Of a stretch of 64,000 bases of DNA, positions 5,841-51,615 are shown piece after piece (positions within the stretch are counted from its first letter, which is position 1; each line of letters begins with the position of its first letter). The DNA is from a virus, in the IMG/VR virus record IMGVR_UViG_3300030098_004420, positions 1 through 64,000 of that record; one strand, written 5' to 3'. The notes beneath the pieces were generated by a model. It was given only the letters and a program-made list of their open reading frames with translations. It was not told where the DNA came from and ran no database searches. The position numbers were made by a program, and so were the translations under genes.

Positions 5841-8800
5841 GTGGCAGCATCACAACAACAAAAAGTAGACTTTCTATTAAAGAAGATTGGTTATACCGCA
5901 TCCAAGACTGGACTTGCGGAAGATTCTAGTTTAAGTGGAACTAAGAAGGCTCCTTTTGCTGAAGCCGTTCCATCTCCATTAGTCATTGCAAGTACGTGTT
6001 TATGGGCAGATAGTACATATATTCCAGCGACTCCTCCTGGATCTGATAGTGATTATGTAAAGGTATATCTTAGTGCTGCTTCTGGTCATAGAATGACTGT
6101 TGACAGTACAGTTTCTGGTAATCGTGCTTATATTGCTTACTCAACTTATAATGATAATGGTACTGCAATCTTAGGTGACTGGATTGATACTCAATTTGGT
6201 GCTAGTTATATTATAAAAGTATATAAAGGTGATCCAAACTCTGGTGGTGTTCAATTATCTGCTGCTGGTTCTGGTTCTAATGATGGATGGTTCTTTGATT
6301 ATTCTGCTGGTATTCTAAACTTTAATGATACCAATGTTCCTAGTGGAGTAACAGATAGTAATATCTACGTTGTTGGTTACAGATATATTGGTACAAAGGG
6401 ACCAACTGCTGCTGGTGGTATTAGTACATTTACAACTCAATATGTATCAGGTGTTTCTACATTTGCTGATGATGTAAATCTATATGGTACTACTGGTGTA
6501 ACATCTGCATACTGGGATAAGACTGGAGATGCAGTTATACTTAAGGATCATACTAAAGCTTCATTTGGTACTGGTCAGGACTTAGAATTCTTTCATGATG
6601 GTGCAAACAGCACGATTAAAAATACTACTGGAACACTTTTTGTTGACAATGGTGGAACAACTTTTAGAAATGTAAGTGGTACTGAAACACAACTTGCTAT
6701 TAGTGATAATGGTTCAGTTGCTGCATACTTTGATAACGCCAAAAAGATAGAAACTCTTTCGGTTGGTGCTACAGTTACGGGCAACTTAGGAGCTACTTCT
6801 GTTAGTATATCTGGTATCTCTACATTTGAAGGTAATGTAGATGCTAATGGAACTTTAGATGTAGATGGTCAAAGTGAATTAGATGATGTTAATGTATCTG
6901 GTGTATCAACATTTGGTCAATTAGTTTCTGCTAGTGCTGGAGCAAATATTGCTGGTGCTGCTGGATTAAACGTTGCTGGAGTAACAACAGTTGGTGGGCA
7001 GATAGATGGTAATGCTGGAGCAGATATTTCTGGTGGAGAAACAACTTTAAGTTCTGCTACTATATCAGATCTAACTTCAGGGAGACTTACTGTTGCTGGT
7101 ACTAGTGGTGCTTTACAAGATAGTTCTAACTTAACATTTGATGGTACTAATAAATTAGCTGTAACTGGTGGACTAACTGTTTCTGCTGGTGCTACTCTTA
7201 GTTCTAATTTAGATGTGGATGGTGGAGCAGATATTTCTGGTGGTGGTGGAACAACACTTAACGTAGTAGGTCATACTGAATTAGACAGAGTTAATGTAAG
7301 TGCTGCATCTACTTTCGGTGGAGATATAGATGCGAATGGTAATATAGATGTAGATGGTCGTGCTGATTTAGATGACGTAGTTGTTACTGGTGTAGCAACA
7401 TTCTCTAATAATATTGATGCTGATGGTAATTTAGATGTAGATGGTCGTACTGATTTAGATGATGTAGTTGTTACTGGTGTAGCAACATTTTCTGCTTTAG
7501 TTGATGGTAATGCTGGTGCAAACTTCTCAGGTGCTGAAACAACTTTAAGTTCTGCTACTGTATCTGATTTAACAGATAATAGAATTGTACTTGCTGGTAC
7601 TTCTGGGTCATTAGAAGATAGTAGTAAGATAACTTTTGACGGAACAACTCTTGCTATAGTTGGAGATGCTACCTTCACAGGAAACGTATCTGTCGCAGGA
7701 ACATTAACCAGTGAAGATAAGGAAAATATAGATTCAGTTGGATTAATAACTGCAAGAACTGGTGTAAGAATTACTTCTGGTGGTCTTACTGTAAATTCTG
7801 GTGTTAGTACATTTACTGATGCTATTGATGCTAATGGTGGTTTAGATGTCGCTGGTGGTTCTGGTTTAGTCGCTTCTTCTGCTAAGATTTCTGACTTAAC
7901 TTCGGGAAGAGTTGTAGTCGCTGGTACTTCTGGAGAACTAGAAGATGCATCTACGTTCACTTTTAGTGGAGGAACTGTATCTGCTACTGCGTTCTCTGGT
8001 ACAAATCTAACAGGAACACTACAAACTGCTGCACAACCAAATATAACTTCATTAGGAACGATTGCATCTTTAGTCGCTTCAAGATCACAGGTTACTGGTG
8101 TTGGTGGATTTAGTGTAACTGGTGTTTCGACTTTCACTGGTGACATAGATGCGAATGGTAATATAGATGTAGATGGTCGTGCCGATTTAGATGACGTAGT
8201 TGTTACTGGTGTTGCTACATTCTCTAATAATATTGACGCTGACGGAGATTTAGATGTAGATGGTCATACTGAACTTGATTATGTAAATGTATCTGCTGCT
8301 GCTACCTTTGCTGGTTTCATTGATGCTAATGCTGGTGCTAATGTCGCTGGTGGATTTGTTGCTAACAGTGCTAAAATTTCTGACTTAACTTCAGGAAGAG
8401 TCCCAGTTGTTGGTACTGATGGAGAACTAGAAGACGCATCCACCTTTACATTTAGTGGAGGAACTGTTACTGCTACTGGGTTCTCTGGTAATTTAACAGG
8501 AACATTACAGACTGCTGCTCAAGGTAATGTTACATCAGTTGGAACTCTAACTGGATTGGATGTCAATGGTCATACAGAATTAGATAACATACAGGTAACT
8601 GGTATAGCAACAGTCGCTAATGTAGTTCTTACTAAAAACACCACAGGTGTTGGTGCTACGATTGGTGGATTAAATGTTGGTGTTGTTACTTACTATGGTG
8701 ATGGATCACAACTTACAGGTATAGATGCTACTGCATTAAAAGATAGTGGTGGTAACGTAAAGGTACAAGCAGTTACTACTGGTGCAGTTGTTACTGGTCT

Positions 8801-11510
8801 TATTACTGCTACTCAAGGATTCTCTGGAGAAATTACTGGTGTAGGTGCTACGTTCACTAACATTACTGGTACATTACAGACTGCTGCTCAAACAAACATC
8901 ACATCACTTGGAACTCTAACTGCATTAACAGTAACTGGTAATGTAGATGCTAATGCTGGATTAGATGTTACTGGTGTTGGTGGATTAAGTGTAACTGGTG
9001 TTTCAACATTTACTGGTGCTGTTGATGCGAATGGTGGTGTTGATATATCAGGTGGAGCAAACACTTTAAATGTTACAGGTCATACAGAATTAGATAATTT
9101 AAATGTATCTGGTATAGCAACGATAGCAAATGTAGTTCTTACAAAGAATACTACAGGTGTTGGTGCTACTGTTGGTGGTCAAAATGTTGGTGTCGTTACT
9201 TACTATGGTGACGGTTCAAAACTTACAGGTACTGGTTCAGACTCTGGTGGTACTCAAAGAGTAGAAGTAGTTAATACTGGTGTGATTCTTGTTGGTGTTA
9301 TAACTGCCACAGATCAATTCAGTGGACAGATTACTGGTGTAGGTGCTACGTTCACTAACATTACTGGTACATTAGTGACTGGTGCTCAAACTAATATTAC
9401 ATCACTTGGAAATCTAACTGGATTGACTATAAATGGTGATGAAGAATTTTATGGTTCTGCTGGTGTTACATCTGCTATCTGGGATAAGTCAGAAAATACT
9501 TTAAACTTTAAGGATCATACTAAAGCTACCTTCGGAACTGGAAATGATATAAGCATATATCATGATGGTGCAAATTCATATGTAGATAACGCTACGGGTG
9601 ATTTCTTCATTAGAAACAATTCTAATGCAATAAAAATTCGACCAAAAAATGATGAAGAATCTATAGTAGCTCATGAAAATGGATCTGTACAGCTCTTTTT
9701 TGATAATTCACAAAAATTTGAGACGACTTATACGGGAACGGTAACGACTGGTATTGGTACTTTTAGTGGTGGAGTTAAAATCGCTGATGATAAATCATTA
9801 ACTGTAGGTAATGACGATAATTTATACATCAAACATAGTGATGGTCACGGTAAGAATTTCTTCGTTTCATCTGTTGGTGACTGTGAATTCCATATGGCTG
9901 GTTCTGAAAAAGCCATGGAATTTAAGACGAATGGTTCAGTAGACATCTACTATAATGCGTCCAAAAAATTCGAGACGACTCATACGGGAGCGATTGTAAC
10001 TGGTATTGCTACTGCTACTACTTTTAGTGTAGGTGATGGTTCTCATAGTACTGATAGAATATCTATTGGCGATGATAATGATTTCGCTTTGTATCATAAT
10101 GGCTCAAATTCGTTTGTTGTAGATCGTGGAACTGGTCCACTGTATATAAGAGGTAATAACGCAGTTCGTATTGAGAGTTATACGAATGACGCTGCTGGCG
10201 AAGCAATGATTATTGCTAATTCTGACGGAGCCGTTGAAGCATACTATGATGCGTCCAAAAAATTCGAGACGACCTATCATGGAGCGATTGTAACTGGAAT
10301 ACTAACTGCTACTAGTGATATTAAGACTACTGCTAACATATATGGTGCTCAAGGACATTTTACCGATCACATATACATTGCAGATAAGATAGTTCATACT
10401 GGAGATACAAATACTGCAATAAGATTCCCTACTAATGATACATTCACAGTAGAAACTGCTGGTTCAGAAAGACTTCGCATCACATCAGCAGGTAATGTCG
10501 GTATCGGAACTGATGCTCCAACTAATTTTAATGCTGCTGCTGATAATTTAGTTGTTGGTGGTGGAGCTGGACATCATGGAATGACTATATGGTCAGCTGC
10601 TGATGGAGATGGTTGGTTAGTCTTTAATGATGCAGTTAACACTAATTTAACTGGAGCAGTTCAATATAACCATGTTAGTGATTACATGGCCTTTAGAACA
10701 GCTACTACTGAAAGACTTCAGATCACAAGTAATGGTAGAGTATTAATTGGAACAGGTGCAGTTGGTGCATCTAGTAATCTTGTAGCACAAGGTGGTTTAC
10801 AAGTTAGTGCAAATGGTGCTTCTGGTGCTCCTTCTCTTTGCATAGGTGCTGATGGTACAGGAGCTAATACTCAATCCTTAACTGATGATACAGTGAAGGA
10901 CTGTAGAATTGGTTATCCTAACTATGATATAGATGAAGAACCACTTGCATTAATATCTGGATTTGTTGGAGATGGTTCTTCATTAGATGACAATGACGGT
11001 GCAAGGATCTATATTGGTGGTGGAACTAGTTACTTGAATGCAGTTAATCAGGTTAGATTCTATACACAAAATACAAATATCGCCACTGTAACTGGTACAG
11101 AAAGATTTCGCATTGGACCCGATGGTACAGCAGACTTTAATTCTAATACAGTTCAAAAGGCAGTACTAAAGAACTATACAGAAACTGTTAAGGCTGTTGG
11201 TAATACAGGTACATCTGCAACTCTTGACTTAGCAGATGGTAACGTCTTCACTGCCACACTAAATGGTAACTGTACATTTACATTTACTACTGGTACGAAC
11301 TCAGCTCCTAATGCTGCATCATTTACTTTAATACTAGCGAATGATAGTACACCAAGTAGAACCATTACTTGGCCTGCAGCAGTTAAGTGGCCTAACAACA
11401 GTGCTCCTTCCAGAACTACTGCTGCAAGTAAGACTGACATTTGGACATTCATGACTCCTGACAATGGCACTACATGGTATGGTAATATAGCCCTATATAA
11501 CTTTACATAG
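5841..11510 (+). CDS. Long tail-fibre-like protein (1889 aa)
   Basis: Many VSGVSTF / DVDG / ISDLTSGR repeats, ERLRITSAGNVGIGT repeats, C-terminal TITWPAAVKWP...TDIWTF module. Confidence 0.85.
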   Translation: MAASQQQKVDFLLKKIGYTASKTGLAEDSSLSGTKKAPFAEAVPSPLVIASTCLWADSTYIPATPPGSDSDYVKVYLSAASGHRMTVDSTVSGNRAYIAYSTYNDNGTAILGDWIDTQFGASYIIKVYKGDPNSGGVQLSAAGSGSNDGWFFDYSAGILNFNDTNVPSGVTDSNIYVVGYRYIGTKGPTAAGGISTFTTQYVSGVSTFADDVNLYGTTGVTSAYWDKTGDAVILKDHTKASFGTGQDLEFFHDGANSTIKNTTGTLFVDNGGTTFRNVSGTETQLAISDNGSVAAYFDNAKKIETLSVGATVTGNLGATSVSISGISTFEGNVDANGTLDVDGQSELDDVNVSGVSTFGQLVSASAGANIAGAAGLNVAGVTTVGGQIDGNAGADISGGETTLSSATISDLTSGRLTVAGTSGALQDSSNLTFDGTNKLAVTGGLTVSAGATLSSNLDVDGGADISGGGGTTLNVVGHTELDRVNVSAASTFGGDIDANGNIDVDGRADLDDVVVTGVATFSNNIDADGNLDVDGRTDLDDVVVTGVATFSALVDGNAGANFSGAETTLSSATVSDLTDNRIVLAGTSGSLEDSSKITFDGTTLAIVGDATFTGNVSVAGTLTSEDKENIDSVGLITARTGVRITSGGLTVNSGVSTFTDAIDANGGLDVAGGSGLVASSAKISDLTSGRVVVAGTSGELEDASTFTFSGGTVSATAFSGTNLTGTLQTAAQPNITSLGTIASLVASRSQVTGVGGFSVTGVSTFTGDIDANGNIDVDGRADLDDVVVTGVATFSNNIDADGDLDVDGHTELDYVNVSAAATFAGFIDANAGANVAGGFVANSAKISDLTSGRVPVVGTDGELEDASTFTFSGGTVTATGFSGNLTGTLQTAAQGNVTSVGTLTGLDVNGHTELDNIQVTGIATVANVVLTKNTTGVGATIGGLNVGVVTYYGDGSQLTGIDATALKDSGGNVKVQAVTTGAVVTGLITATQGFSGEITGVGATFTNITGTLQTAAQTNITSLGTLTALTVTGNVDANAGLDVTGVGGLSVTGVSTFTGAVDANGGVDISGGANTLNVTGHTELDNLNVSGIATIANVVLTKNTTGVGATVGGQNVGVVTYYGDGSKLTGTGSDSGGTQRVEVVNTGVILVGVITATDQFSGQITGVGATFTNITGTLVTGAQTNITSLGNLTGLTINGDEEFYGSAGVTSAIWDKSENTLNFKDHTKATFGTGNDISIYHDGANSYVDNATGDFFIRNNSNAIKIRPKNDEESIVAHENGSVQLFFDNSQKFETTYTGTVTTGIGTFSGGVKIADDKSLTVGNDDNLYIKHSDGHGKNFFVSSVGDCEFHMAGSEKAMEFKTNGSVDIYYNASKKFETTHTGAIVTGIATATTFSVGDGSHSTDRISIGDDNDFALYHNGSNSFVVDRGTGPLYIRGNNAVRIESYTNDAAGEAMIIANSDGAVEAYYDASKKFETTYHGAIVTGILTATSDIKTTANIYGAQGHFTDHIYIADKIVHTGDTNTAIRFPTNDTFTVETAGSERLRITSAGNVGIGTDAPTNFNAAADNLVVGGGAGHHGMTIWSAADGDGWLVFNDAVNTNLTGAVQYNHVSDYMAFRTATTERLQITSNGRVLIGTGAVGASSNLVAQGGLQVSANGASGAPSLCIGADGTGANTQSLTDDTVKDCRIGYPNYDIDEEPLALISGFVGDGSSLDDNDGARIYIGGGTSYLNAVNQVRFYTQNTNIATVTGTERFRIGPDGTADFNSNTVQKAVLKNYTETVKAVGNTGTSATLDLADGNVFTATLNGNCTFTFTTGTNSAPNAASFTLILANDSTPSRTITWPAAVKWPNNSAPSRTTAASKTDIWTFMTPDNGTTWYGNIALYNFT
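6996..7195 (+). repeat. Fibre module, copy A (similar to 61497-61696)
   Basis: Encodes GQIDGNAGADISGGETTLSSAT...FDGTNKLAVTGGLTVSAGAT; 3' end nearly identical in DNA to copy B. Confidence 0.85.
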
Positions 11511-11535: not shown

Positions 11536-12153
11536 ATGACTGAACTACAACATTCTCCTGGAAAGTGCCAATATAATCAGTTTATTGGCATTTATGAAAA
11601 TGTATTTCCCGATGGTTATTGTAACCATCTAGTTACTGAAATGGAGAGTCTTTTAGCAACAGGAGCTGGTTATGATAGACAATCTACTGAAGGTGTTACT
11701 AAAACAGTAAAACAGGATGAATATGTTTTCATTAATATGAAAATTCATAATCCTAATCCATTTAATGGTGAGATGTGTCAGAAGATTTTTTGGGATGGTC
11801 TCCAACATTGTTTTGATCGATATTGTAGGGAGTATGATATTTTAAAAGATATGCCTCTTAAGGCTACTACTCTTAAATTACAGAAGACTGTTCCTGGTGG
11901 AGGATATCATGTTTGGCATTGTGAGCAGGGAACAGAAGATGGTGCTAACAGAGTTGCTGTTTACAGTTTGTATTTAAATACAATTGAAGAAGCAGGAGAA
12001 ACCGAATTCTTATATCAAAAATTGAGACTACCTGCAAAAGAAAACACAATGGTTATTTGGCCTGCTGGTTACACTCATCCTCATCGTGGAAATGCTGTGT
12101 ATGGTGACAAGGCAAAATATATTCTAACAGGATGGTTTTATGTTGATTATTGA
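11536..12153 (+). CDS. 2OG-Fe(II) oxygenase (prolyl-4-hydroxylase-like)
   Basis: GGGYHVWHCE...YLN...GETEFLYQ...IWPAGYTHPHRGN...KYILTGW. Confidence 0.9.
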   Translation: MTELQHSPGKCQYNQFIGIYENVFPDGYCNHLVTEMESLLATGAGYDRQSTEGVTKTVKQDEYVFINMKIHNPNPFNGEMCQKIFWDGLQHCFDRYCREYDILKDMPLKATTLKLQKTVPGGGYHVWHCEQGTEDGANRVAVYSLYLNTIEEAGETEFLYQKLRLPAKENTMVIWPAGYTHPHRGNAVYGDKAKYILTGWFYVDY

Positions 12154-12161
12154 TTCTTAAT

Positions 12162-12169
12162 TATAAATA
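12162..12169 (+). promoter_or_regulatory. T4-type late promoter
   Basis: TATAAATA just upstream of the Gly-rich gene at 12194. Confidence 0.8.
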
Positions 12170-12193
12170 AACTTATAGGAAAATAATAGAAAA

Positions 12194-15100
12194 ATGGCAA
12201 TAGGAACCAAAAAAGTATTAGCTCCTGGATTTATGGAACCTGCGGATTCCGTAACCTTTAATAATCCAGGTACTTTTGTTGCTCCTATGAGACTAAGGAA
12301 CCTTACTGTAACAGGTAGAGGTGGTAGTGGTAATCCAGGTAATGCAGGAAATGGTGGTAATGGTGGTACTGCAGGATCTGCTGGTAACTCAGGTAATCCA
12401 GGAACAGCAGGTAGTGGAGGTTCAGCAGGAAACCCAGGTGGTGATGGTAATGTAGGTACTGGTGGTAATGCAAACCCAGGTAATGCAGGTAATAATGGTG
12501 CTGCAGGAACAGCAGGTAACTCAGGTAACCCAGGAACAAAAGGTAATGGTGGTAGTGCAGGAAACCCAGGTAATGATGGTAATGTAGGTAGTGGTGGCAC
12601 CAAAGGTAATGCAGGAAACCCAGGTAATGCTGGAACTGCTGGTAACGGAGGAACAGCAGGAAACCCAGGTAATCCAGGTAATAATGGTGCTGCAGGAACA
12701 GCAGGTAATGCAGGTAATTCTGGAACTGGTGGTAACGGAGGTTCAGCAGGTAACCCAGGTAACTCAGGAACTGGTGGTCCTGGTGGAACAGCAGGAAACC
12801 CAGGTAACTCAGGAACTAATGGTGGTGCAGGAAACCCAGGAAATTCAGGAAACCCAGGAGGAAGTGGTAACGGTGGTCCTGGTGGTAATGCAGGTAATCC
12901 TGGTAATCCTGGCGGAACAGGTAATTCAGGAAACGCTGGAGGAGGAGGCGGCGGTGGTGGCGGTGGTGCCCAAGATTGGAACGTCGCTCCTATGCATCCA
13001 GGAAATCCAGGTAATGCTGGATCACCAAGTCCAGGTGGAGGACCAGGAGGTGCTGGAGGACCAGCTGCTGGACCTAACTTAGGACATACCGCTTCAGGAG
13101 GAAATGGTCAACCAGGAAATAGTGGAGGAGGTGGTTGGAACGGTAACCCAGGTAGTAATGGAAACCCAGGTCACGGACATAATAATGGTGGTAGTGGAAA
13201 TAGTGGACATAATGGTAACCCAGGTAACTCAGGTAATGCAGGGAATTATGGGTCTAATGGTAACCCAGGAACTGGTGGAGGAACAGGAGGTGGTGGTAGC
13301 TCAGGTAATCCAGGAACAGGAGCTACCAACGGTAATCCAGGAAGTCCAGGTAACCCAGGAACAGGAGCTAATCCAGGAACAAATGGTAACCCAGGTAATC
13401 CAGGAACAGGTGCCAATGAAGGTAACGCAGGATCAAGTGGTAACCCAGGATCAGGAGCTAATAACGGAAACCCAGGTAATTCAGGAGCAACAGGAAATCC
13501 AGGAACAGGTGCTACATCAGGAAACCCAGGAACAAATGGTACTGATGGATCTGGTGCTGGTAGTGGTGGTGCGGGTGCTGATGGTAATCCAGGAAATGCT
13601 AACCCAGGTAATGCAGGAAATCCAGGTACAGCAGGAACAGGTGCTACATCAGGAAATCCAGGCACAGCAGGAACAGCAGGAACAGGAGCTACATCAGGTA
13701 ACCCAGGTAATCCAGGAAATAATGGAAACCCAGGTAATGTAGGTAATCCATCATCAGTATTTGGATTAACATTCTCTGGTGGTAATGGTGGTACTGCTGG
13801 TAGTGGTAATCCAGGAACAGCAGGTAATCCAGGAAATAATGGTACTGGTGGTGCAGGTAATCCAGGTAACGCAGGAACCAATGGTACAGGTGGTACTGCA
13901 GGTAATCCAGGAAATGCTGGAACTGCTGGTACTGGTGGTAGTGCTGGTAACTCAGGTAATCCAGGAACATCAGGAACAAAAGGTAATGCTACTGGAGGTA
14001 ATCCAGGTAATAATGGTGCTGCAGGAACAGCAGGTAACCCAGGTAATGCAGGTAATCCAGGAACTAATGGAACAGGTGGTACTGGTAACCCAGGTAATGA
14101 TGGAAATAATGGTGCAGGTGGTACTGCAGGAACAGCAGGTAATCCAGGAAATAATGGTCCAGGTGGAACAGGTAATCCAGGTAATGCAGGAACCAATGGT
14201 ACAGGTGGTACTGGAAATCCAGGAAACTCTGGGGGTGCTGGTACTGGTGGTAGTGCTGGTAATAGAGGTACTGGAGGAAATGGTGGACCAAGAGGTAATG
14301 CAGGTAATCCTGGTGGATCAGGTAATCCAGGAGGAAGTGGATTTGGTGGCACTGGAGGACCAGGAGGAACTGGTGGTCCTGGCGGTGGAGGAGGCGGTGG
14401 AGGCGGCTCTACCGTAGGAGGATCATTTGGTGGATCTTCTGGACATTCTGCTGGTGGTGGATATAGTGGTGGTAATGGTGGTACCCAAGGTCCAGGTGGA
14501 TCTGGTGGTACTGGTGGTGGTGCTAACTCAGGATCTGGTGGTCATTCAGGATGGCATGCATCTAATGGTAATACAGGACCAAGTGGATCTGGACATAATA
14601 ATGGTGGTAGTGGTAACCCAGGCAGTCCAGGTACTGGAGCTACATCAGGTAACCCAGGACATGGTGGTAACCCAGGAAATGGTAACCCAGGTAATGCTGG
14701 TTCAGATGGTAATCCAGGAAGTGGTAACCCAGGTAACCCAGGATCTGCAGGAACAGCAGGAACTGGTGCTGGTTCAGGTAATGCAGGTGCTGATGGCAAT
14801 CCAGGAAATGCTAACCCAGGTAATGCTGGTTCTGATGGTAACAATGGTAACCCAGGAACAGGAGCAGGTGAAGGAGGAGCAGGAGCAAATGGTAATCCAG
14901 GAAACCAAAACCCAGGAAACTCAGGAGCAGCAGGTAATCCAGGAACAGGTGCTACATCAGGAAATCCAGGTAACTCAGGTAATCCAGGAACAGGAGCAGG
15001 TGAAGGGCAAGCAGGAGCAGATGGTAATCCAGGAAACCAAAGTAGTGGAGGTTCAGGATCTGCAGGAACAGCAGGTAATCCAGGAACAGGTAATCCAGGA

Positions 15101-15217
15101 GGTGCTGGAGGCACAGCACCTGCTAGTAACTTAGCGTCGTTGATAACTGGTGGTACTTCTTATCCAGTAGTTGTTGGTCCTGGTGGATATATAACAATTA
15201 CTTACGAGACACAGTAA
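12194..15217 (+). CDS. Gly-X-X repeat (polyglycine-II / collagen-like) structural protein, 1007 aa
   Basis: About 930 aa of GNP/GNA/GTA/GNS triplets between short globular ends resembling phage glycine-rich domains (TFNNPGTFVAP...LTVTGRGG; SYPVVVGPGG). Confidence 0.85.
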   Translation: MAIGTKKVLAPGFMEPADSVTFNNPGTFVAPMRLRNLTVTGRGGSGNPGNAGNGGNGGTAGSAGNSGNPGTAGSGGSAGNPGGDGNVGTGGNANPGNAGNNGAAGTAGNSGNPGTKGNGGSAGNPGNDGNVGSGGTKGNAGNPGNAGTAGNGGTAGNPGNPGNNGAAGTAGNAGNSGTGGNGGSAGNPGNSGTGGPGGTAGNPGNSGTNGGAGNPGNSGNPGGSGNGGPGGNAGNPGNPGGTGNSGNAGGGGGGGGGGAQDWNVAPMHPGNPGNAGSPSPGGGPGGAGGPAAGPNLGHTASGGNGQPGNSGGGGWNGNPGSNGNPGHGHNNGGSGNSGHNGNPGNSGNAGNYGSNGNPGTGGGTGGGGSSGNPGTGATNGNPGSPGNPGTGANPGTNGNPGNPGTGANEGNAGSSGNPGSGANNGNPGNSGATGNPGTGATSGNPGTNGTDGSGAGSGGAGADGNPGNANPGNAGNPGTAGTGATSGNPGTAGTAGTGATSGNPGNPGNNGNPGNVGNPSSVFGLTFSGGNGGTAGSGNPGTAGNPGNNGTGGAGNPGNAGTNGTGGTAGNPGNAGTAGTGGSAGNSGNPGTSGTKGNATGGNPGNNGAAGTAGNPGNAGNPGTNGTGGTGNPGNDGNNGAGGTAGTAGNPGNNGPGGTGNPGNAGTNGTGGTGNPGNSGGAGTGGSAGNRGTGGNGGPRGNAGNPGGSGNPGGSGFGGTGGPGGTGGPGGGGGGGGGSTVGGSFGGSSGHSAGGGYSGGNGGTQGPGGSGGTGGGANSGSGGHSGWHASNGNTGPSGSGHNNGGSGNPGSPGTGATSGNPGHGGNPGNGNPGNAGSDGNPGSGNPGNPGSAGTAGTGAGSGNAGADGNPGNANPGNAGSDGNNGNPGTGAGEGGAGANGNPGNQNPGNSGAAGNPGTGATSGNPGNSGNPGTGAGEGQAGADGNPGNQSSGGSGSAGTAGNPGTGNPGGAGGTAPASNLASLITGGTSYPVVVGPGGYITITYETQ

Positions 15218-15259: not shown

Positions 15260-15913
15260 ATGCCAAAAAAAGAATCTGAAATTCGTAAGAAGATCAATGA
15301 AATGGCTGAAGAAAATGAATATTACAATCTTCAGCAAAATAAAAATCGAGCTCGCTCTATTACATGTGGAACTGCTTTTGGTGGAACCATAGAAGTTAAT
15401 ATGAGGGGTGATCACCATTCTATGTGGTGTAGTATGACACCTGTAGAAGCACTTGAGTTTGCAGAACAAATGGCTGCTGCTTGTGGTGTTCAAGTTGCTT
15501 TAAGACCTAAAGATGACTTTAGTGCTTGGAGAGGATGGGACATTGAAAATACTGAATATTCTCACTTTAAAGGTGCTGCACCTTGGCAAGTGCATAATAT
15601 TGCAGGAGCAAATGTTCATCAAAGTAGACTTGGTGGAAGTGGTGGTACTGCTGGTACACCAGTTGAAGATGAGTATCCTTCAAAAGAGGAACGAATTGCT
15701 GAGTTTAAAAGACAAAGAGATGAAGCACAAGCTGAGTTGGAAAATCTAGAAAAAGATCCTGAGGATATTATGGATGATATTGGAAATCCTGAAATTGCAA
15801 TAGCAGGTGTTCCAACTGAAAAAATGTTTGATCAGAAGGTTCAACATGAAGCTAATCTCATGAGTAAGAATCTAGAAGCTATAAAAGAACAACAAGAGGC
15901 ACAAAACGAATGA
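15260..15913 (+). CDS. Hypothetical protein
   Basis: 217-aa ORF following the Gly-rich gene. Confidence 0.8.
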   Translation: MPKKESEIRKKINEMAEENEYYNLQQNKNRARSITCGTAFGGTIEVNMRGDHHSMWCSMTPVEALEFAEQMAAACGVQVALRPKDDFSAWRGWDIENTEYSHFKGAAPWQVHNIAGANVHQSRLGGSGGTAGTPVEDEYPSKEERIAEFKRQRDEAQAELENLEKDPEDIMDDIGNPEIAIAGVPTEKMFDQKVQHEANLMSKNLEAIKEQQEAQNE

Positions 15914-17174: not shown

Positions 17175-18008
17175 ATGGCTCATGATGAACATGGTATGTG
17201 GATTCAAGATGATATTCCTTATAGAGAACGTCTTAATTCAGGTACATCTCTAACAAATCATAAAGAGTTTGAGGAGAATGGATATTTTGTTGTAAAGGAT
17301 TTTTATGATCCTCAATTTTTTTATGAATTGCCTCCTAAAAAACCAGGAAAATATGATTATAATGGTGATGTCAATTTGTATAATTATAATGAGAATGAAG
17401 GGCAGGTAAAAAATAGTACGTCAAGAACTAAGTACCCACCATATGAGAGTGCACATACTCGTATTAGATATAAACTTGAAAAACTTATAGGTAAAAAACT
17501 TTATAATACTTATTTTTATGATCGTTTTTATGTACCAGGATATCCATTAACTCCTCATACAGATCGTCCTGCTTGTGAGATTTCTGTAACACTTCATATT
17601 AGTAGTAATGTAAAAGATCCGTGGCCTATTTGGATTAAGGGTGCAGATACTTATGATATTCCTAGAGCTAAAAATCCGTGGAGTAAAAAAATTATAAACC
17701 AAGGACTTGAACGTTCAGTTATTTTAAAACCTGGCGATGCCTTAATTTATAAAGGATGTGAAAGACCTCATTGGAGAGAACCATTACCTAGAGAATATAG
17801 AACAATATATAGTATTCAATATACTGATGATATAACATCCATTCCACCAAAAGTTTATTCAGAACCTCAATATGGTATGAGGGAAGAGATTGGAGGATTA
17901 TATTATCATCAAATATTTTTTCATTATGTTTTACAAGATGGGTTGAGAGCAGATAAGGCTTGGGATAATAATGATTGCGATCCAATGCTATGGCCAAGTA
18001 GGTTATAA
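17175..18008 (+). CDS. 2OG-Fe(II) oxygenase-like protein
   Basis: HTDRPACEISVT (HxD), GDALIYKGCERPHWRE, QIFFHYV. Confidence 0.75.
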   Translation: MAHDEHGMWIQDDIPYRERLNSGTSLTNHKEFEENGYFVVKDFYDPQFFYELPPKKPGKYDYNGDVNLYNYNENEGQVKNSTSRTKYPPYESAHTRIRYKLEKLIGKKLYNTYFYDRFYVPGYPLTPHTDRPACEISVTLHISSNVKDPWPIWIKGADTYDIPRAKNPWSKKIINQGLERSVILKPGDALIYKGCERPHWREPLPREYRTIYSIQYTDDITSIPPKVYSEPQYGMREEIGGLYYHQIFFHYVLQDGLRADKAWDNNDCDPMLWPSRL

Positions 18009-18039: not shown

Positions 18040-19719
18040 ATGACTACAGGGCAAATTGCTTATACTATTCCTGGTACTTACTCGTTTGTGTGTCCCATTG
18101 GAATTACTTCTGTCTCCGTTCTTTGTATCGGTGGAGGAGGACAGGGTGGAAATTCAAGTGCCCTTGACTCTCCAGGTGGAGGAGGAGGTGGATTAGGATA
18201 TAAAAATAATATTCCTGTTACTGCTGGACAATATTATACTGTTGTTGTTGGAGAAGGTGGAGCAGTTCTTAAACAAAGGGGTGAGAATGGTGTAGATGGA
18301 TTGGATAGTTATTTTATAAGTAAGGATACTGTTGTTGGGTTTGGTGGTAAAGGTGGACAGACTGGTGGAAATGCTGGTGCTGGTGGAACATACTTTGGAG
18401 ATGGTGGTGGTAATGGTGGTGCTGGAGGTGCTGCAAATAGTCTTCAAGGTGGAGGCGGTGGAGCAGGAGGGTACTCTGGTAACGGTGGAGATGGATTAAG
18501 TTCTGCTTCTGGTAGTAGTGGTGCTGGTACTGGTGGTGCTGGTGGAGGAGGATATAAAGCAGGTGGAGGTGGTGTAGGACTTCTAGGTGAAGGTTCTAGT
18601 GGTGCTTCTGCAAGTTCTGGGACTATTGGTAATGCTGGTTCGGGTGGTATTAATGCTACTGTTCCTACAATATCTTTTCCTTATGTTAATTTTTCTGGAG
18701 TTGCTACCAATTATACTTACACTAGTCCATTATTTTTAGTTGGTGGAGCATATGGTGGAGGTGGATGTAGTGCTTGGGCAAATGGAGGTGGAAGTGGTGG
18801 TGCAGTACGTATTATATGGGGTGAAGGAAGAGAATTTCCCTCAACTAATACAGGAGATGTTGGTATAGGAACCACTTCTCATAGACTTTATATTACTATT
18901 AGTGATGGTGAAGCATCACAACATCCCATATATGAATCTAACTTTAAGGAAGCATTTCCAAGTGTAGATGCTGATAATTTAGATAAGGATGAGTATTGTC
19001 TTTTCCAACGGGTTAAACGTACTTATTTGACTGCCTATGAAAAAAATCAAGTCAATAGTTATAGAAATTCTGAACCAATAACTATATTAACTTTAAACAA
19101 TACTGTTAATACTGTAGAGTGTCCTCCATTTGCTGTGATAAAAGGAGAGACAAGTGGTGCTACTGGATATGTTATTCCTAATTTAATTAATGATGGAAAT
19201 ATAGATCAAAGTACGATTAGTGATGTAATACAATTACAAAAAACTGTAGGGACTTTTAGTGTTCCTGAACAAATTTCTTTTAATGGATCGGGTGATCCAG
19301 AGAGAAGAATCACTAATATTGGTATTGGTACAACAACACTTGTGAACTTTAATACAGGAGCACCTGGTGTAATTGAACCATATGGAGATAATTTTTACTA
19401 TGATGTGTGGACTCATGATATAATGACAGACTCTGAAAAGACCACAAAACAAAATCAAATTAAGAGTGAATGGAATACCAGAGTTGGTACTTCATTATCA
19501 TCTTGGATTTTTGATGATGTTTCTTGTTCATATAAAACTCCAACACTACCTCCAACTCCTGCTAAAATTGGTATACAAACTAATATAGCTGTATATGATA
19601 AGGTAACTAATGAATATTTGGGTGTAGGAACAGCAGATGCTTATGTCCCATTACCACAATATCGTTGGGATGAGGCAGCATATCAGGCAGACAACACAAA
19701 GGGTTGGGTTACCGACTAA
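18040..19719 (+). CDS. Glycine-rich-domain structural protein
   Basis: PGTYSFVCPIGITSVSVLCIGGGG...YTVVVGEGG...GGAVRIIWG glycine-rich domain, then a KGETSGATGY module and QYRWDE tail. Confidence 0.75.
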   Translation: MTTGQIAYTIPGTYSFVCPIGITSVSVLCIGGGGQGGNSSALDSPGGGGGGLGYKNNIPVTAGQYYTVVVGEGGAVLKQRGENGVDGLDSYFISKDTVVGFGGKGGQTGGNAGAGGTYFGDGGGNGGAGGAANSLQGGGGGAGGYSGNGGDGLSSASGSSGAGTGGAGGGGYKAGGGGVGLLGEGSSGASASSGTIGNAGSGGINATVPTISFPYVNFSGVATNYTYTSPLFLVGGAYGGGGCSAWANGGGSGGAVRIIWGEGREFPSTNTGDVGIGTTSHRLYITISDGEASQHPIYESNFKEAFPSVDADNLDKDEYCLFQRVKRTYLTAYEKNQVNSYRNSEPITILTLNNTVNTVECPPFAVIKGETSGATGYVIPNLINDGNIDQSTISDVIQLQKTVGTFSVPEQISFNGSGDPERRITNIGIGTTTLVNFNTGAPGVIEPYGDNFYYDVWTHDIMTDSEKTTKQNQIKSEWNTRVGTSLSSWIFDDVSCSYKTPTLPPTPAKIGIQTNIAVYDKVTNEYLGVGTADAYVPLPQYRWDEAAYQADNTKGWVTD

Positions 19720-50028: not shown

Positions 50029-51615
50029 ATGGCGTTAAAGATAAGAAAAGATGGTGCTTGGGTAAACATTGCGGATCTTGGTGTCAAGGGACAAAAAGGT
50101 GAGAAAGGAGAGAAGGGAGAAAAGGGTGAAAAAGGACAGAAAGGACAGAAAGGTGAGAAAGGACAAAAAGGTGAAGCTGGAGAAGTAGCAGAAAAAGGGC
50201 AGAAAGGTGAGAAGGGAGATAAAGGTCAGAAAGGTGAAATAGGTGGCCAAGGTAATAAAGGTCAGAAAGGTGAAGTTGGTGATAAAGGTCAGAAAGGTGA
50301 GGATGGGGATAAAGGTAATAAAGGAGAAAAGGGTGAGAAAGGAGAAAAAGGAGAAAAAGGTATAGAAGGTGCAGCTGCTGATAAAGGGCAGAAAGGGGAG
50401 AAAGGTGAAAAGGGTCAGAAAGGTGCAATAGGTGGAACTGGTGATAAGGGTCAGAAAGGAGAAGTTGGTGAAAAAGGAGATAAAGGAATTAAAGGTGACT
50501 TTAAAGGGGATAAAGGTGAAAAAGGAGAAAAAGGAGAAAAGGGTCAATCTGGAGACGACGGTAATAAAGGTCAGAAAGGTGAAGATGGAGAAAAGGGAAT
50601 TAAAGGCGACTTTAAAGGAGAAAAGGGACAGAAAGGAGAAGGAGATAAAGGACAGAAAGGAGAAGAACCTGATAAAGGTCAGAAAGGAGAAGGAGATAAA
50701 GGTGACAAAGGAGAGAAAGGGGAGAAAGGTGAAAAGGGTCAGAAAGGTGAAAAGGGTGCTATAGATGAGAAGGGTGCTAAAGGGGAGAAGGGTGAAAAGG
50801 GACAGAAAGGTGACTTTAAAGGAGAGAAAGGAGAGAAAGGACAGAAAGGTGAAAAGGGTGCTGTAGAGGATAAAGGTAATAAAGGTGACAAAGGAGATAA
50901 AGGTGAAAAGGGTGCTATAGATGAGAAGGGTAATAAAGGTGACAAAGGAGAGAAAGGACAGAAAGGTGACTTTAAAGGGCAGAAAGGTCAAAAAGGACAA
51001 AAAGGTGATGTAGAAGAAAAGGGTAATAAAGGTGATAAGGGACTTAAAGGTGAAGAAGGTGCTGGTGCTGATTTAGATATGCAGTATGAGTTACCAAACA
51101 CCACTTATGGTGGTAGTTGGGATACAACACTTAAAACAGGAATTGATACTCTAAAATTTAAAGGTTGGTTACCACCTGGTCCTTCAGTAACATCTGGAAG
51201 TATTGGACCAATAGTAACATCTGGAAGTACTGCTACCGTTTACATGAATGGTGTTCACTCTTCATTTGCTGGATCTTGGCAACTTTTTGCTGCTAGGTGT
51301 ACGGGTACTTGTAATTACAATAGTGGTAGTCCAATACAATCTGGTTGGCAGAATCAATTCTCATCTATGAGTGTTCCTGTTGCTGGTTTTATGCGAGGTA
51401 CTTATACGTTCCCCCTAACTTCAGGATTTGGTTCTCAACCTGCTGTTGTTACAGGACCAAAAGGATATGAACAAACTAAAGGTGTACAGATTTATTGTAC
51501 TGGTCATACCACAACTATAATTGACTTTATAACATTGACTACTACACCTCAAGGTGCATTAAATATTATTGATGTAGTTAGTCAACCATTCTCATTTGCT
51601 GTCTTTGATTGGTAA
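50029..51615 (+). CDS. Collagen-like protein (Gly-X-Lys repeats)
   Basis: About 325 aa of GEK/GQK/GDK triplets with a globular C-terminal domain; AATAAATA upstream. Confidence 0.9.
   Translation: MALKIRKDGAWVNIADLGVKGQKGEKGEKGEKGEKGQKGQKGEKGQKGEAGEVAEKGQKGEKGDKGQKGEIGGQGNKGQKGEVGDKGQKGEDGDKGNKGEKGEKGEKGEKGIEGAAADKGQKGEKGEKGQKGAIGGTGDKGQKGEVGEKGDKGIKGDFKGDKGEKGEKGEKGQSGDDGNKGQKGEDGEKGIKGDFKGEKGQKGEGDKGQKGEEPDKGQKGEGDKGDKGEKGEKGEKGQKGEKGAIDEKGAKGEKGEKGQKGDFKGEKGEKGQKGEKGAVEDKGNKGDKGDKGEKGAIDEKGNKGDKGEKGQKGDFKGQKGQKGQKGDVEEKGNKGDKGLKGEEGAGADLDMQYELPNTTYGGSWDTTLKTGIDTLKFKGWLPPGPSVTSGSIGPIVTSGSTATVYMNGVHSSFAGSWQLFAARCTGTCNYNSGSPIQSGWQNQFSSMSVPVAGFMRGTYTFPLTSGFGSQPAVVTGPKGYEQTKGVQIYCTGHTTTIIDFITLTTTPQGALNIIDVVSQPFSFAVFDW

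What the first reader, a model, noticed from the sequence alone, without database searches (positions are those of the whole stretch)
12194..15217. Four-arm, out-and-back Gly-X-X protein: possible single-chain polyglycine-II fibre
Seen: the three pieces of a small glycine-rich domain (N-terminus, central SSVFGLTFSGG at ~13750, C-terminus) are separated by two huge inserts of matching design. Each has an outgoing arm of about 200 aa of near-continuous G-X-X (12329-12937; 13780-14380), a poly-Gly run (12938-67; 14381-406), an irregular His/Trp-containing tip (both contain GHNNGGSGN), and a return arm punctuated by GTGATS/GTGAGE stutters. Established: G-X-X chains form antiparallel polyglycine-II bundles (snow-flea antifreeze protein, S16 gp38). 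Inference: two hairpins pack into a four-chain rod of roughly 60 nm (200 residues x ~0.3 nm) with binding loops at the tip, unlike trimeric fibres or collagen.
Basis: partly seen in the sequence, partly recalled or inferred. Interest (0 to 1): 0.8.

Follow-up and report, generated by a model that had tools for sequence, protein, structure and literature searches.

The report
Phage fibre of two glycine hairpins
A marine cyanophage gene encodes a 1007-residue Gly-X-X protein whose chain leaves a tiny core twice and returns twice in exact register, so it is probably a 60-80 nm stretched version of known glycine-rich phage tail-fibre tips, a kind of protein rod not yet seen in nature.

Summary

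In ten full-length homologues (1007-1207 aa), the four arms keep matching lengths. Insertions recur at the same distance from the core in all four arms. Every break in the Gly phase of an outgoing arm has a partner at the same height in its return arm, and none in the other hairpin.

The N- and C-terminal core pieces resemble the start of the Gly_rich_2 domain, which is the fold of the cyanophage Pam3 gp24 fibre tip. The tips are the most variable part.

My best reading is a phage fibre or adhesin built from two long antiparallel polyglycine-II-type hairpins. Three things remain inferred, not shown:
- the conformation of the arms
- whether they are straight (a compact bundle of short helices is the main rival)
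- the oligomeric state

AlphaFold2 on the monomer was uninformative.

The scan met this protein type before on other DNA (e1-5706831) and also read it as a long-stemmed fibre-tip relative. I class it as a new variant of a known kind.

The parts
12194..12325 (+). Core piece N (aa 1-44): beta strands ending in LTVTGRGG
   Evidence: 88% mean pairwise identity among lineages and fixed length. Aligns to Gly_rich_2 positions 1-33. AF2 strands at aa 20-23 and 37-42.
12326..12937 (+). Outgoing arm 1 (aa 45-248, 204 aa): near-continuous G-X-Y, rich in extra Gly
   Evidence: 17 + 55 in-phase triplets. One phase break at height 49, mirrored in return arm 1. Length co-varies with the other arms.
12938..13108 (+). 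Tip 1 (aa 249-305): Gly10 run, then the irregular AQDW...GHTASGGNG segment
   Evidence: Non-Gly identity is only 38% between lineages. Carries W, H and, in some lineages, CC.
13109..13747 (+). Return arm 1 (aa 306-518, 213 aa): G-N-P-rich, with a GxGA (Gly-to-Ala) break about every 15 aa
   Evidence: Phase break at height 49 matches outgoing arm 1.
13748..13783 (+). Central core piece (aa 519-530): PSSVFGLTFSGG
   Evidence: 91% identity and fixed 12-aa length. In the three-piece complex prediction, replacing the chain that holds this piece dropped the score to 0.06.
13784..14377 (+). Outgoing arm 2 (aa 531-728, 198 aa): G-X-Y with five one-residue-short steps (GxGGxG)
   Evidence: Phase breaks at heights 20, 69, 96, 125 and 143.
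14378..14527 (+). Tip 2 (aa 729-778): Gly9 run plus an irregular segment
   Evidence: The most variable segment: non-Gly identity 23%, and dN/dS about 1 or above in 4 of 6 pairs.
14528..15115 (+). Return arm 2 (aa 779-974, 196 aa): G-N-P-rich, with two-residue-long steps (GNANPG, GNQNPG) and GTGA breaks
   Evidence: Phase breaks at heights 25, 69, 101, 131 and 146 mirror outgoing arm 2.
15116..15217 (+). Core piece C (aa 975-1007, plus stop): ASNLASLITGGTSYPVVVGPGGYITITYETQ
   Evidence: 81% identity. Aligns to the Gly_rich_2 motif NNI.VTPGQSYTVVVG.GG, positions 34-66. AF2 strand at aa 999-1004.
11536..12153 (+). 2OG-Fe(II) oxygenase directly upstream, weakly prolyl-4-hydroxylase-like; candidate modifier of the G-N-P-G prolines
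   Evidence: PF13640 E 1.1e-9. All six PDB hits are prolyl 4-hydroxylases, but only at E about 0.1. Present upstream in every homologous locus that reaches that far.
15260..15913 (+). Conserved 217-aa gene directly downstream, no known family; possible assembly or adaptor protein
   Evidence: No Pfam, PHROG or PDB match. Present in every locus that reaches that far. The role is inferred only from its position, which resembles that of the Pam3 chaperone gp25 (PMC9608196).
18040..19719 (+). Canonical Gly_rich_2 protein of the same cassette, the short-loop relative
   Evidence: PF21722 E 1.1e-7. AF2 pLDDT 88. Foldseek top hits are the Pam3 fibre 7ypx/7yfw and the Bxb1 tail tip, followed by LTK/ALK.

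Best explanation
The gene encodes a virion fibre or adhesin of an uncultured T4-like marine cyanophage.

Proposed architecture. About 89 residues, split into three pieces (N 44, central 12, C 33), form a small beta core related to the first part of the Gly_rich_2 / Pam3 gp24 fibre-tip fold. Canonical members have a 20-residue glycine hairpin loop at this point. This protein instead has two hairpins, each with arms of 196-261 residues. Each outgoing arm lies antiparallel to, and in residue register with, its return arm. The two hairpins have the same length and share height-specific features. I therefore read them as running side by side, as a four-stranded rod of left-handed three-residue (polyproline-II / polyglycine-II type) helices with the in-phase Gly stripe facing inward. 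At about 0.31 nm per residue the rod would be 61-66 nm long here and up to about 80 nm in relatives. The two irregular tips (57 + 50 aa) meet at the far end and probably form the variable binding surface.

Likely modification. The adjacent oxygenases may hydroxylate the Y-position prolines (X-Pro-Gly).

What is shown. The comparative analysis shows the split conserved core, the out-and-back pairing in register, the equal and co-varying arms, and the variable tips.

What is inferred. The helix type, straight arms as opposed to a compact bundle, the oligomeric state, receptor binding and hydroxylation are all inferred.
For: 1. Segment lengths between conserved landmarks in ten homologues, given as out1/ret1/out2/ret2:
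- window 204/213/198/196
- L012 213/222/207/205 (+9 in every arm)
- L017 237/248/230/228
- L005 243/248/239/238
- L011 252/261/244/242
The core pieces stay fixed at 44/12/33.

2. Indels are mirrored in all four arms at the same distance from the core. L012 has +6 at residue 85-96 and +3 at 109-132 in each arm, stable under three gap settings. L005 has +6 at 7-19 and +11 at 88-96 in each arm. The inserted sequences differ between arms, so gene conversion between the arms is not the cause.

3. Gly-phase breaks are mirrored within hairpins.
- In the window, out1 and ret1 both break at height 49. Out2 breaks at 20/69/96/125/143 and ret2 at 25/69/101/131/146.
- L005 gained three further breaks in out1 (98/210/224) and three in ret1 (99/212/226).
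- Mean nearest distance is 0-3.8 aa in nine of the ten within-hairpin comparisons, against 15-86 aa for random placement (P 5e-5 to 5e-3); L017 hairpin 1 is the exception (25.7 aa, P 0.11).
- Cross-hairpin pairs look random, P 0.3-0.7.

4. A composite of the core pieces scores 35.1 in hhalign against a Gly_rich_2 alignment (Prob 75%, E 2.5e-5). Sixty column shuffles gave 11.9 +/- 2.4, maximum 19.4. The whole 930-aa middle falls where the canonical domain has its first Gly hairpin.

5. The neighbouring canonical Gly_rich_2 domain folds confidently (pLDDT 88). Its best structural matches are the Pam3 fibre gp24, the Bxb1 tail tip, and LTK/ALK. In Pam3 gp24, six out-and-back glycine loops run along the fibre axis, with a conserved stem and a variable receptor-binding tip (PMC9608196).

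6. Conservation falls from core to arms to tips, and tip 2 has dN/dS of about 1.

7. The context is a tail-fibre gene cluster, and the synteny is strictly conserved.

8. ESMFold2 complex of three core-plus-stub pieces: ipSAE 0.56 against a best control of 0.06. The runs agree in at least 62% of contacts and the partner pLDDT is at least 60. The mark was reached by 58 of 80 solved complexes and 2 of 110 mismatches, but at 0.60 or under by only 7 of those 80 and by both mismatches. This is weak support only.

9. Pro sits at Y 72 times and at X 10 times. The upstream oxygenase's only PDB hits are prolyl 4-hydroxylases, at E about 0.1.
Against: - No structural evidence for the arms exists. AF2 on the full monomer gave pLDDT 30.
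- All four arms show a super-period of about 15 aa. That equals the helix-plus-loop length of the compact springtail antifreeze bundles, whose helices have 3-4 GXX repeats (PMC10235112). Many short helices are therefore possible in place of four long ones.
- Gly content of the arms, by my estimate from the triplet counts, is about 36-49%, well below the GGGGxGG motifs of Pam3 gp24.
- Hairpin 1 has one phase break and hairpin 2 has five to eight. That is awkward for a symmetric four-helix bundle.
- The Pfam models PF21722 and PF12810 do not match the protein.
- Only about five independent length classes are available, all from marine metagenomes.
- The oligomeric state is unknown, and TNF-like fibre tips are usually trimers.
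- No virion proteomics exists and the phage is not cultured.
Confidence: 0.6

Rival explanations
1. Compact polyglycine-II sandwich. Each 'arm' is a sheet of about 13-17 short (about 11-residue) PPII helices joined by tight turns, as in springtail antifreeze proteins. The outgoing and return arms form facing layers. The particle would be a plate of roughly 8 x 3.5 nm, not a 60 nm rod.
For: A super-period of about 15 aa for GxGG and Pro in the outgoing arms and for GxGA in the return arms. Natural PPII bundle helices have 3-4 GXX repeats with Gly facing inward (PMC10235112). All solved PPII bundles listed in PMC12227593 are compact. Matched features at equal path length from the core would also arise if the layers face each other.
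Against: Indels are 3, 6, 11-12, 18 and 21 residues, not multiples of 15 or 30. They lengthen single units without changing neighbouring units in the same arm, which would leave helices protruding from a sheet. All four arms are matched, which would need a four-layer stack, yet the outgoing arms have only about 49% Gly (my estimate from the triplet counts), too little for Gly on both faces. The canonical relatives use straight hairpins along the fibre axis.
Confidence: 0.17
2. Folded-back collagen-like homotrimer. Each arm forms a parallel triple helix with the same arm of two other subunits, stabilised by hydroxyproline made by the neighbouring enzymes. The four triple helices run out and back from a trimeric core.
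For: G-X-Y periodicity, with phmmer matches to collagens (E 6.5e-42). PF01391 matches weakly in the window protein and above threshold in L005. Pro is at Y in the X-Pro-Gly context. A P4H-like oxygenase is always adjacent. TNF-like fibre tips such as Pam3 gp24 are trimers.
Against: Gly occupies X or Y in 20-28% of triplets in the outgoing arms, and Asn occupies X in 45% overall. From general knowledge of collagen host-guest studies, both are poor triple-helix formers. No trimerisation domain is present. Identical chains in a triple helix match their own interruptions automatically, so nothing would force outgoing and return arms to place breaks and indels at the same height. The charged collagen-like fibre in the same window (50029-51615) looks quite different.
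Confidence: 0.12
3. Linear fibre made of a tandemly duplicated collagen-like module, or a single giant hairpin with SSVFGLTF at its tip. In both cases there is no four-arm arrangement.
For: The two halves are clear paralogues: out1 vs out2 are 72% identical in DNA over 213 nt, and ret1 vs ret2 are 67-79% identical. Duplication alone therefore explains the 'matching design'.
Against: Phase breaks pair out1 with ret1 and out2 with ret2, not out1 with ret2 (P 0.3-0.7 for cross pairs). A linear fibre predicts no mirrored heights at all. The N and C pieces align to adjacent strands of one domain. The central piece is as conserved and hydrophobic as the core, unlike the variable tips.
Confidence: 0.04

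Closest known systems
Cyanophage Pam3 tail fibre gp24 (PDB 7YPX/7YFW; PMC9608196), the TNF-like plus glycine-rich domain type; Pfam Gly_rich_2 PF21722
   Same: A beta core from which out-and-back glycine-rich hairpins run along the fibre axis. The stem is conserved and the distal tips are variable. It is encoded in a phage fibre gene cluster. The N and C core pieces align to the first 66 positions of the family profile. A canonical member sits 3 kb downstream in the same cassette.
   Different: Hairpin arms are 196-261 residues here, against about 7-10. There are two hairpins, not six. The arms are G-N-P / G-X-Y, not GGGGxGG. The core is only about 89 aa and covers about a third of the domain. 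No N-terminal alpha-helical docking or trimerisation domain is present. The Pfam model does not match.
Salmonella phage S16 gp38 adhesin (PDB 6F45), a polyglycine-II sandwich of ten glycine-rich motifs
   Same: A phage adhesin in which PPII-type glycine helices form the stem and the loops at their far end bind the receptor (as described in PMC9608196 and PMC12227593).
   Different: No sequence match. gp38 is compact and caps a separate fibre, gp37. Here the glycine helices themselves would be the shaft.
Springtail (snow flea) antifreeze proteins, two-layer antiparallel PPII bundles (PMC10235112)
   Same: G-X1-X2 tripeptide repeats with the in-phase Gly facing inward, antiparallel helices, and similar small polar residues.
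   Different: Their helices have 3-4 triplets and the proteins are 6.5-15 kDa and compact. They are not related to phage fibres and have no beta core.
Bacterial and phage collagen-like proteins (Pfam PF01391; Scl1/Scl2; the window's own fibre at 50029-51615)
   Same: Long G-X-Y tracts, Pro at Y, and an adjacent prolyl-hydroxylase-like enzyme. Iyer et al. 2010 (PMC2938197) predicted that bacterial dioxygenases modify glycine-rich collagen-like proteins.
   Different: Intrachain antiparallel register between arms. No trimerisation domain. Many Gly at X and Y, and almost no charged residues. The protein scores below the Pfam threshold (21.5 vs 27.2 bits).
ALK/LTK glycine-rich domain (PF12810; PDB 7LS0, 7NX1)
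   Same: A distant structural relative of the neighbouring Gly_rich_2 domain: a TNF-like sandwich with a polyglycine-II lattice (ranks 5-13).
   Different: No profile match in this genome. It is a eukaryotic receptor domain with short helices.

Membership tests
Gly_rich_2 (PF21722) / Pam3 gp24-type fibre tip | Match to the family profile above threshold | tested here: not met
   No PF21722 hit for the whole protein or for its N, central or C pieces. A six-frame scan of the contig finds only the neighbour at 18070-18648.
Gly_rich_2 (PF21722) / Pam3 gp24-type fibre tip | N-terminal strand motifs (..tpGtY.w.vPagV..v.v...GGGG, then NNI.VtPGqsYtVvVG.GG) | tested here: met
   hhalign of the composite core against the family alignment: score 35.1, Prob 75%, E 2.5e-5. 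Column shuffles gave 11.9 +/- 2.4, maximum 19.4. An ESM Atlas feature search also points to viral Gly_rich_2 clusters, at 0.80-0.83, which is a lead only.
Gly_rich_2 (PF21722) / Pam3 gp24-type fibre tip | Complete TNF-like two-sheet sandwich (about 230 profile positions, six loops) | tested here: not met
   Only about 66 of 230 positions are covered. The central piece does not align significantly. The core is 89 aa with two loops.
Gly_rich_2 (PF21722) / Pam3 gp24-type fibre tip | Glycine-rich loops that go out and come back side by side | tested here: met
   Met by comparative evidence only: co-varying arm lengths, mirrored indels and mirrored phase breaks.
Gly_rich_2 (PF21722) / Pam3 gp24-type fibre tip | Conserved stem with a hypervariable distal tip | tested here: met
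   Non-Gly identity is 79-88% in the core, 41-54% in the arms and 23-38% in the tips. Tip 2 has dN/dS of about 1.
Collagen triple helix (PF01391) | Profile match above the gathering score | tested here: inconclusive
   The window protein scores 21.5 bits against a cut-off of 27.2. The homologue in L005 scores 56.7 bits. These matches rest on periodicity and composition.
Collagen triple helix (PF01391) | Uninterrupted G-X-Y over the helical region | tested here: inconclusive
   Arm 1 has 55 consecutive triplets. Arm 2 has five one-residue deletions. The return arms have a Gly-to-Ala break about every 15 aa and two-residue insertions.
Collagen triple helix (PF01391) | Three parallel chains in a staggered homotrimer or heterotrimer, with a trimerisation domain | not testable with these tools
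   No trimerisation domain was found. The antiparallel intrachain register argues against this as the main interaction.
Polyglycine-II / PPII helical bundle (structural class) | Three-residue repeat with an inward Gly stripe and antiparallel neighbouring helices | tested here: met
   Met at sequence level: the G-X-Y phase and antiparallel register.
Polyglycine-II / PPII helical bundle (structural class) | PPII backbone angles and inter-helix main-chain hydrogen bonds | not testable with these tools
   The AF2 monomer model has pLDDT 30. The tool released no coordinates or contacts for the complex prediction.
ALK_LTK_GRD (PF12810) | Profile match | tested here: not met
   No match anywhere on the contig at E up to 10.

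The most novel reading that the evidence does not exclude
Nature has built a fibre shaft from polyglycine-II-type helices. These would be 200-260-residue antiparallel PPII strands held in register for 60-80 nm, possibly hydroxylated by phage-encoded prolyl-hydroxylase-like enzymes. That would be a further kind of protein rod alongside coiled coils, beta-structured fibres and collagen. A stronger form of this reading is a trimer in which the almost break-free hairpin 1 strands form a straight inner bundle. The outer hairpin 2 strands would wind around it, and their matched phase breaks would be the resets that such winding requires.
Probability: 0.4. Interest if true: 0.85.

Novelty: new variant of a known kind. 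Interest (0 to 1): 0.72.

Why it matters
Known natural polyglycine-II / PPII bundles have helices of about 7-12 residues and are compact (PMC12227593, PMC10235112, PMC9608196). If the arms here are continuous, this family shows that the same packing can be extended about 20-fold into a rod roughly 1 nm thick and 60-80 nm long, encoded by one chain.

That would matter in three ways:
- Protein designers who want PPII building blocks would gain a natural model.
- It offers a model for how marine cyanophages reach their hosts.
- It helps interpret the many collagen-like annotations of G-X-Y proteins in viromes.

The compensated indels and mirrored phase breaks give a sequence-only test for register. 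The same test can be applied to other repeat fibres.

The strict linkage with three oxygenase-like genes also makes a long-standing question directly testable: what do the many cyanophage 2OG-Fe(II) oxygenases do? The test is to look for hydroxyproline in this protein.

Tried and rejected
- **AF2 of the full monomer**, with a 3-sequence alignment: pLDDT 30, pTM 0.21, no information on the arms.
- **Pfam, NCBIfam and PHROG** on the whole protein and on its N, central and C pieces. Only weak collagen/Scl matches driven by periodicity appeared; no Gly_rich_2, ALK_LTK_GRD or PHROG hit.
- **phmmer against the PDB.** Only collagens matched. The 8ZXL 'spindlefibril/axialfibril' hit is cited in a collagen-assembly paper.
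- **Cultured-phage collection** (DNA, whole protein, N- and C-terminal pieces): no homologue.
- **Word-indexed protein search** with the whole protein: only collagen-like low-complexity hits.
- **N-terminal region search against shorter proteins:** only three contig-end fragments, and no short-armed relative.
- **Profile search of 1.84 billion representatives** with A1: swamped by long G-X-Y proteins. The family appears only as a 105-aa fragment.
- **Central piece against the Gly_rich_2 profile:** not significant. A permuted core raised the score only slightly, from 35.1 to 38.5.
- **GG doublets against GxGA breaks, antiparallel vs parallel register.** Antiparallel was equal or better in all 10 comparisons, but only by 0-2 coincidences, so I treat this as suggestive only.
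- **Gap positions in the more divergent pairs** (L017, L011 vs the window) move with gap penalties. Only the L012 and near-core L005 indel matches are used as evidence.
- **Gene conversion as the cause of matched indels:** rejected. The inserted sequences differ between arms and no long near-identical DNA repeats exist.
- **Downstream genes at 15260-15913 and 17175-18008:** no PDB sequence match.


Full report
**1. What is there**

Window 12194-15217 (+) is a 1007-codon ORF. The protein is 38.7% Gly, 17.1% Asn, 9.9% Ala and 9.4% Pro, and has almost no charged or large hydrophobic residues.

- Outgoing arms are at aa 45-248 and 531-728.
- Gly10 and Gly9 runs are at aa 249-258 and 730-738.
- The irregular His/Trp-bearing segments follow those runs.
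- GHNNGGSGN occurs at aa 328 and 800.
- SSVFGLTFSGG starts at aa 520.
- The return arms are punctuated about every 15 residues by GTGAT/GTGAN/GTGAG.

Gly stays in phase for 17 + 55 triplets in arm 1. The triplet positions are used asymmetrically. X is mostly Asn (45%), Gly or Thr. Y is mostly Pro, Gly or Ala. Pro occurs 72 times at Y and 10 times at X. The other-frame and antisense ORFs in this stretch are by-products of the codon periodicity.

**2. Where it lies**

The window is part of a 78.9-kb IMG/VR viral contig, estimated 35% complete. The gene neighbours are those of a T4-like cyanomyovirus tail-fibre region.

The local order is:
- a 1889-aa fibre (5841-11510)
- a 2OG-Fe(II) oxygenase (11536-12153)
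- this gene
- an unknown 217-aa gene
- a DUF4376 fibre-like gene
- a second oxygenase
- a canonical Gly_rich_2 (PF21722) protein at 18040-19719

The same order is found in every one of eleven further viral or metagenome loci that extends far enough. No cultured phage record holds a homologue. The gene is under purifying selection, with dN/dS of 0.34-0.57.

**3.

I aligned ten full-length homologues of 1007-1207 aa (A2). I then measured the segments between conserved landmarks: GRGG, the poly-Gly/AQDW start, SGGNG, PSSVFGL, FSGG, the tip-2 anchors, and NLASLITGG.

The core pieces never change length (44, 12 and 33 aa). The four arms change together:

| Lineage | out1 | ret1 | out2 | ret2 |
|---|---|---|---|---|
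| window | 204 | 213 | 198 | 196 |
| L012 | 213 | 222 | 207 | 205 |
| L017 | 237 | 248 | 230 | 228 |
| L005 | 243 | 248 | 239 | 238 |
| L011 group | 252 | 261 | 244 | 242 |

L012 is exactly +9 in each arm relative to the window.

The individual indels are also mirrored. Relative to the window, L012 has one +6 at 85-96 residues from the core and one +3 at 109-132 residues from the core in each of the four arms. This holds under MAFFT and under three pairwise gap settings. L005 has +6 at 7-19 and +11 at 88-96 in each arm.

The inserted residues differ between arms, and the DNA has no long near-identical repeats. Copying between arms therefore does not explain the pattern. For the two most divergent lineages the gap positions depend on the method, so I do not use them as evidence.

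**4. Register within each hairpin**

I traced the Gly phase along each arm and recorded every shift as a height above the core.

- In the window, out1 and ret1 each have one shift, both at height 49.
- Out2 shifts at 20, 69, 96, 125 and 143. Ret2 shifts at 25, 69, 101, 131 and 146.
- Lineage-specific gains are mirrored too. L005 hairpin 1 has shifts at 55/98/210/224 in out1 and 55/99/212/226 in ret1.
- L011 hairpin 2 has eight shifts in each arm, all within 5 residues of a partner.

Against random placement, the within-hairpin match gives P of 5e-5 to 5e-3 in nine of the ten comparisons (L017 hairpin 1: P 0.11). The cross pairs (out1-ret2, out2-ret1) are indistinguishable from random, with P of 0.3-0.7.

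This shows that each outgoing arm runs antiparallel to its own return arm, in register. It excludes both a linear tandem fibre and a single giant hairpin. In hairpin 2 the shifts are one-residue deletions in the outgoing arm (GxGGxG) and two-residue insertions in the return arm (GNANPG, GNQNPG).

Hairpin 1 is almost free of shifts and hairpin 2 is not, so the two hairpins are not equivalent.

**5. The core and its relatives**

The Pfam models do not match the protein. I built a composite of the three core pieces with 6-residue stubs and compared it with an alignment of Gly_rich_2 domains, made from homologues of the neighbouring gene.

- hhalign gave a score of 35.1, Prob 75%, E 2.5e-5.
- Sixty column shuffles gave 11.9 +/- 2.4, with a maximum of 19.4.
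- The N piece aligns to the first three strands.
- The C piece aligns to the hallmark NNI.VTPGQSYTVVVG.GG element.
- The whole 930-residue middle sits where canonical members have their first 20-residue glycine hairpin.
- The central piece does not align significantly.

The neighbour's canonical domain folds with pLDDT 88. Its best PDB matches are the cyanophage Pam3 fibre gp24 (E 8e-7), the mycobacteriophage Bxb1 tail-tip proteins, and then LTK/ALK.

In Pam3 gp24, a TNF-like sandwich sends out six out-and-back glycine loops along the fibre axis. They stack at about 5 A spacing, with a conserved stem and a variable receptor-binding tip (PMC9608196). PMC13243192 classes the Pam3 and Bxb1 domains as PPII helical bundles.

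The present protein shows the same conservation gradient. Non-Gly identity is 79-88% in the core, 41-54% in the arms and 23-38% in the tips. Tip 2 has dN/dS near or above 1 in four of six pairs, though the counts are small.

**6. Structure prediction**

AF2 on the whole monomer was uninformative (pLDDT 30).

I also submitted an ESMFold2 complex of three pieces: aa 1-104, 460-591 and 917-1007, which is the core plus 60-residue arm stubs. It scored ipSAE 0.56 against a best control of 0.06. Runs agreed in at least 62% of contacts, and the partner pLDDT was at least 60.

By the tool's calibration, the mark was reached by 58 of 80 solved complexes and 2 of 110 mismatches. At 0.60 or under it was reached by only 7 of those 80 and by both mismatches. 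This is weak support only. Replacing the central chain dropped the score to 0.06.

**7. Reading**

Shown by comparison:
- a split conserved core
- two out-and-back hairpins in antiparallel register
- four arms of equal and co-varying length that share height-specific indels
- variable tips

Inferred: the arms are PPII / polyglycine-II-type helices with the in-phase Gly facing inward. The grounds are the three-residue repeat, the antiparallel neighbours, and the family precedent. I also infer that they are continuous. At about 0.31 nm per residue, a figure from established knowledge of PPII geometry, that gives 61-66 nm here and up to about 80 nm in the longest relatives.

The main rival is a compact sandwich of many short helices. 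All arms show a super-period of about 15 residues. Springtail antifreeze bundles use helices of 3-4 triplets (PMC10235112). The indel sizes (3, 6, 11-12, 18, 21) and the matching across all four arms fit a rod better, but they do not exclude the compact form.

A folded-back collagen-like trimer is a weaker rival. Identical chains match their own interruptions automatically, so that model gives no reason for outgoing and return arms to match.

The oligomeric state is open. The contrast between the nearly unbroken hairpin 1 and the frequently shifted hairpin 2 would fit an inner straight pair and an outer winding pair. That is speculation.

**8. The oxygenases**

Pro sits in the X-Pro-Gly context that collagen prolyl 4-hydroxylases use. 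The upstream enzyme belongs to PF13640, and its only PDB sequence hits are prolyl 4-hydroxylases, at E about 0.1. The linkage is invariant.

Iyer et al. 2010 noted tandem dioxygenase arrays in cyanophages. They predicted that bacterial dioxygenases modify glycine-rich collagen-like proteins (PMC2938197). Hydroxylation of this protein is therefore a reasonable hypothesis, but it is untested.

**9. Earlier notes of this scan**

After I had reached the Pam3 link, I found a follow-up on other DNA, e1-5706831, also 3024 letters long. It had read a Gly-Asn-Pro protein beside a prolyl-hydroxylase-like enzyme as a long-stemmed relative of phage fibre tips. This agrees with my reading.

New here are the register evidence (co-varying arms, mirrored indels, mirrored phase breaks) and the mapping of the core onto the first part of Gly_rich_2.

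**10. Verdict**

The conformation, the straightness of the arms and the oligomeric state are still to be shown. I class it as a new variant of a known kind, the Pam3 gp24 / Gly_rich_2 glycine-rich fibre tips, with an extreme and unprecedented elongation of the glycine hairpins.

Noticed in passing
window 50029-51615 (+): A second, classical collagen-like fibre gene. It has about 340 aa of charged GEKGEKGQKG triplets (X = E/Q/D, Y = K) followed by a globular C-terminal domain. PF01391 matches at E 1.6e-39, and many PHROG tail-fibre families match. Its composition is quite unlike that of the Gly-Asn-Pro protein.
   Followed up: partly
window 18040-19719 (+): A canonical Gly_rich_2 (PF21722) protein in the same conserved cassette. 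The AF2 model of aa 1-275 has pLDDT 88, and its best PDB matches are the Pam3 fibre gp24 and the Bxb1 tail tip. Its family had more than 3000 hits in the word-indexed search, some with two or three tandem domains per protein.
   Followed up: partly
window 15260-15913 (+): A 217-aa gene always found directly downstream of the Gly-Asn-Pro gene. It is 41-92% identical across loci and has an acidic, coiled-coil-like C-terminus, with no Pfam, PHROG or PDB match. Its position recalls the fibre chaperone gp25 downstream of Pam3 gp24.
   Followed up: partly
It has no Pfam or PDB sequence match, so its enzyme class is unverified.
   Followed up: partly
window 12326-15115 (+), all four arms: A super-period of about 15 residues. 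A Gly at the Y position recurs every five triplets, as GxGG in the outgoing arms and as GxGA in the return arms. Its phase relative to the core is the same in both hairpins and in five lineages (offsets congruent to +7 modulo 15). The cause is unknown.
   Followed up: partly
L013:3-3399: One metagenome copy of the gene is broken into three frames (374-aa, 236/261-aa and 872-aa open stretches). This is either an assembly or sequencing slip in the repeats or a real frameshift.
   Followed up: no
window 10500-11507 (+) and loci L004-L019: The C-terminal end of the upstream 1889-aa fibre varies from 51% to 98% identity among loci whose neighbouring genes are otherwise similar. This suggests that fibre ends are exchanged in a mosaic fashion.
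   Followed up: no
window 12157-12603 (-), 13246-14352 (-), 14542-15114 (-): Long antisense Pro/Leu/Val-rich ORFs of up to 368 aa overlap the gene. They mirror the GGN periodicity and should not be annotated as genes.
   Followed up: no
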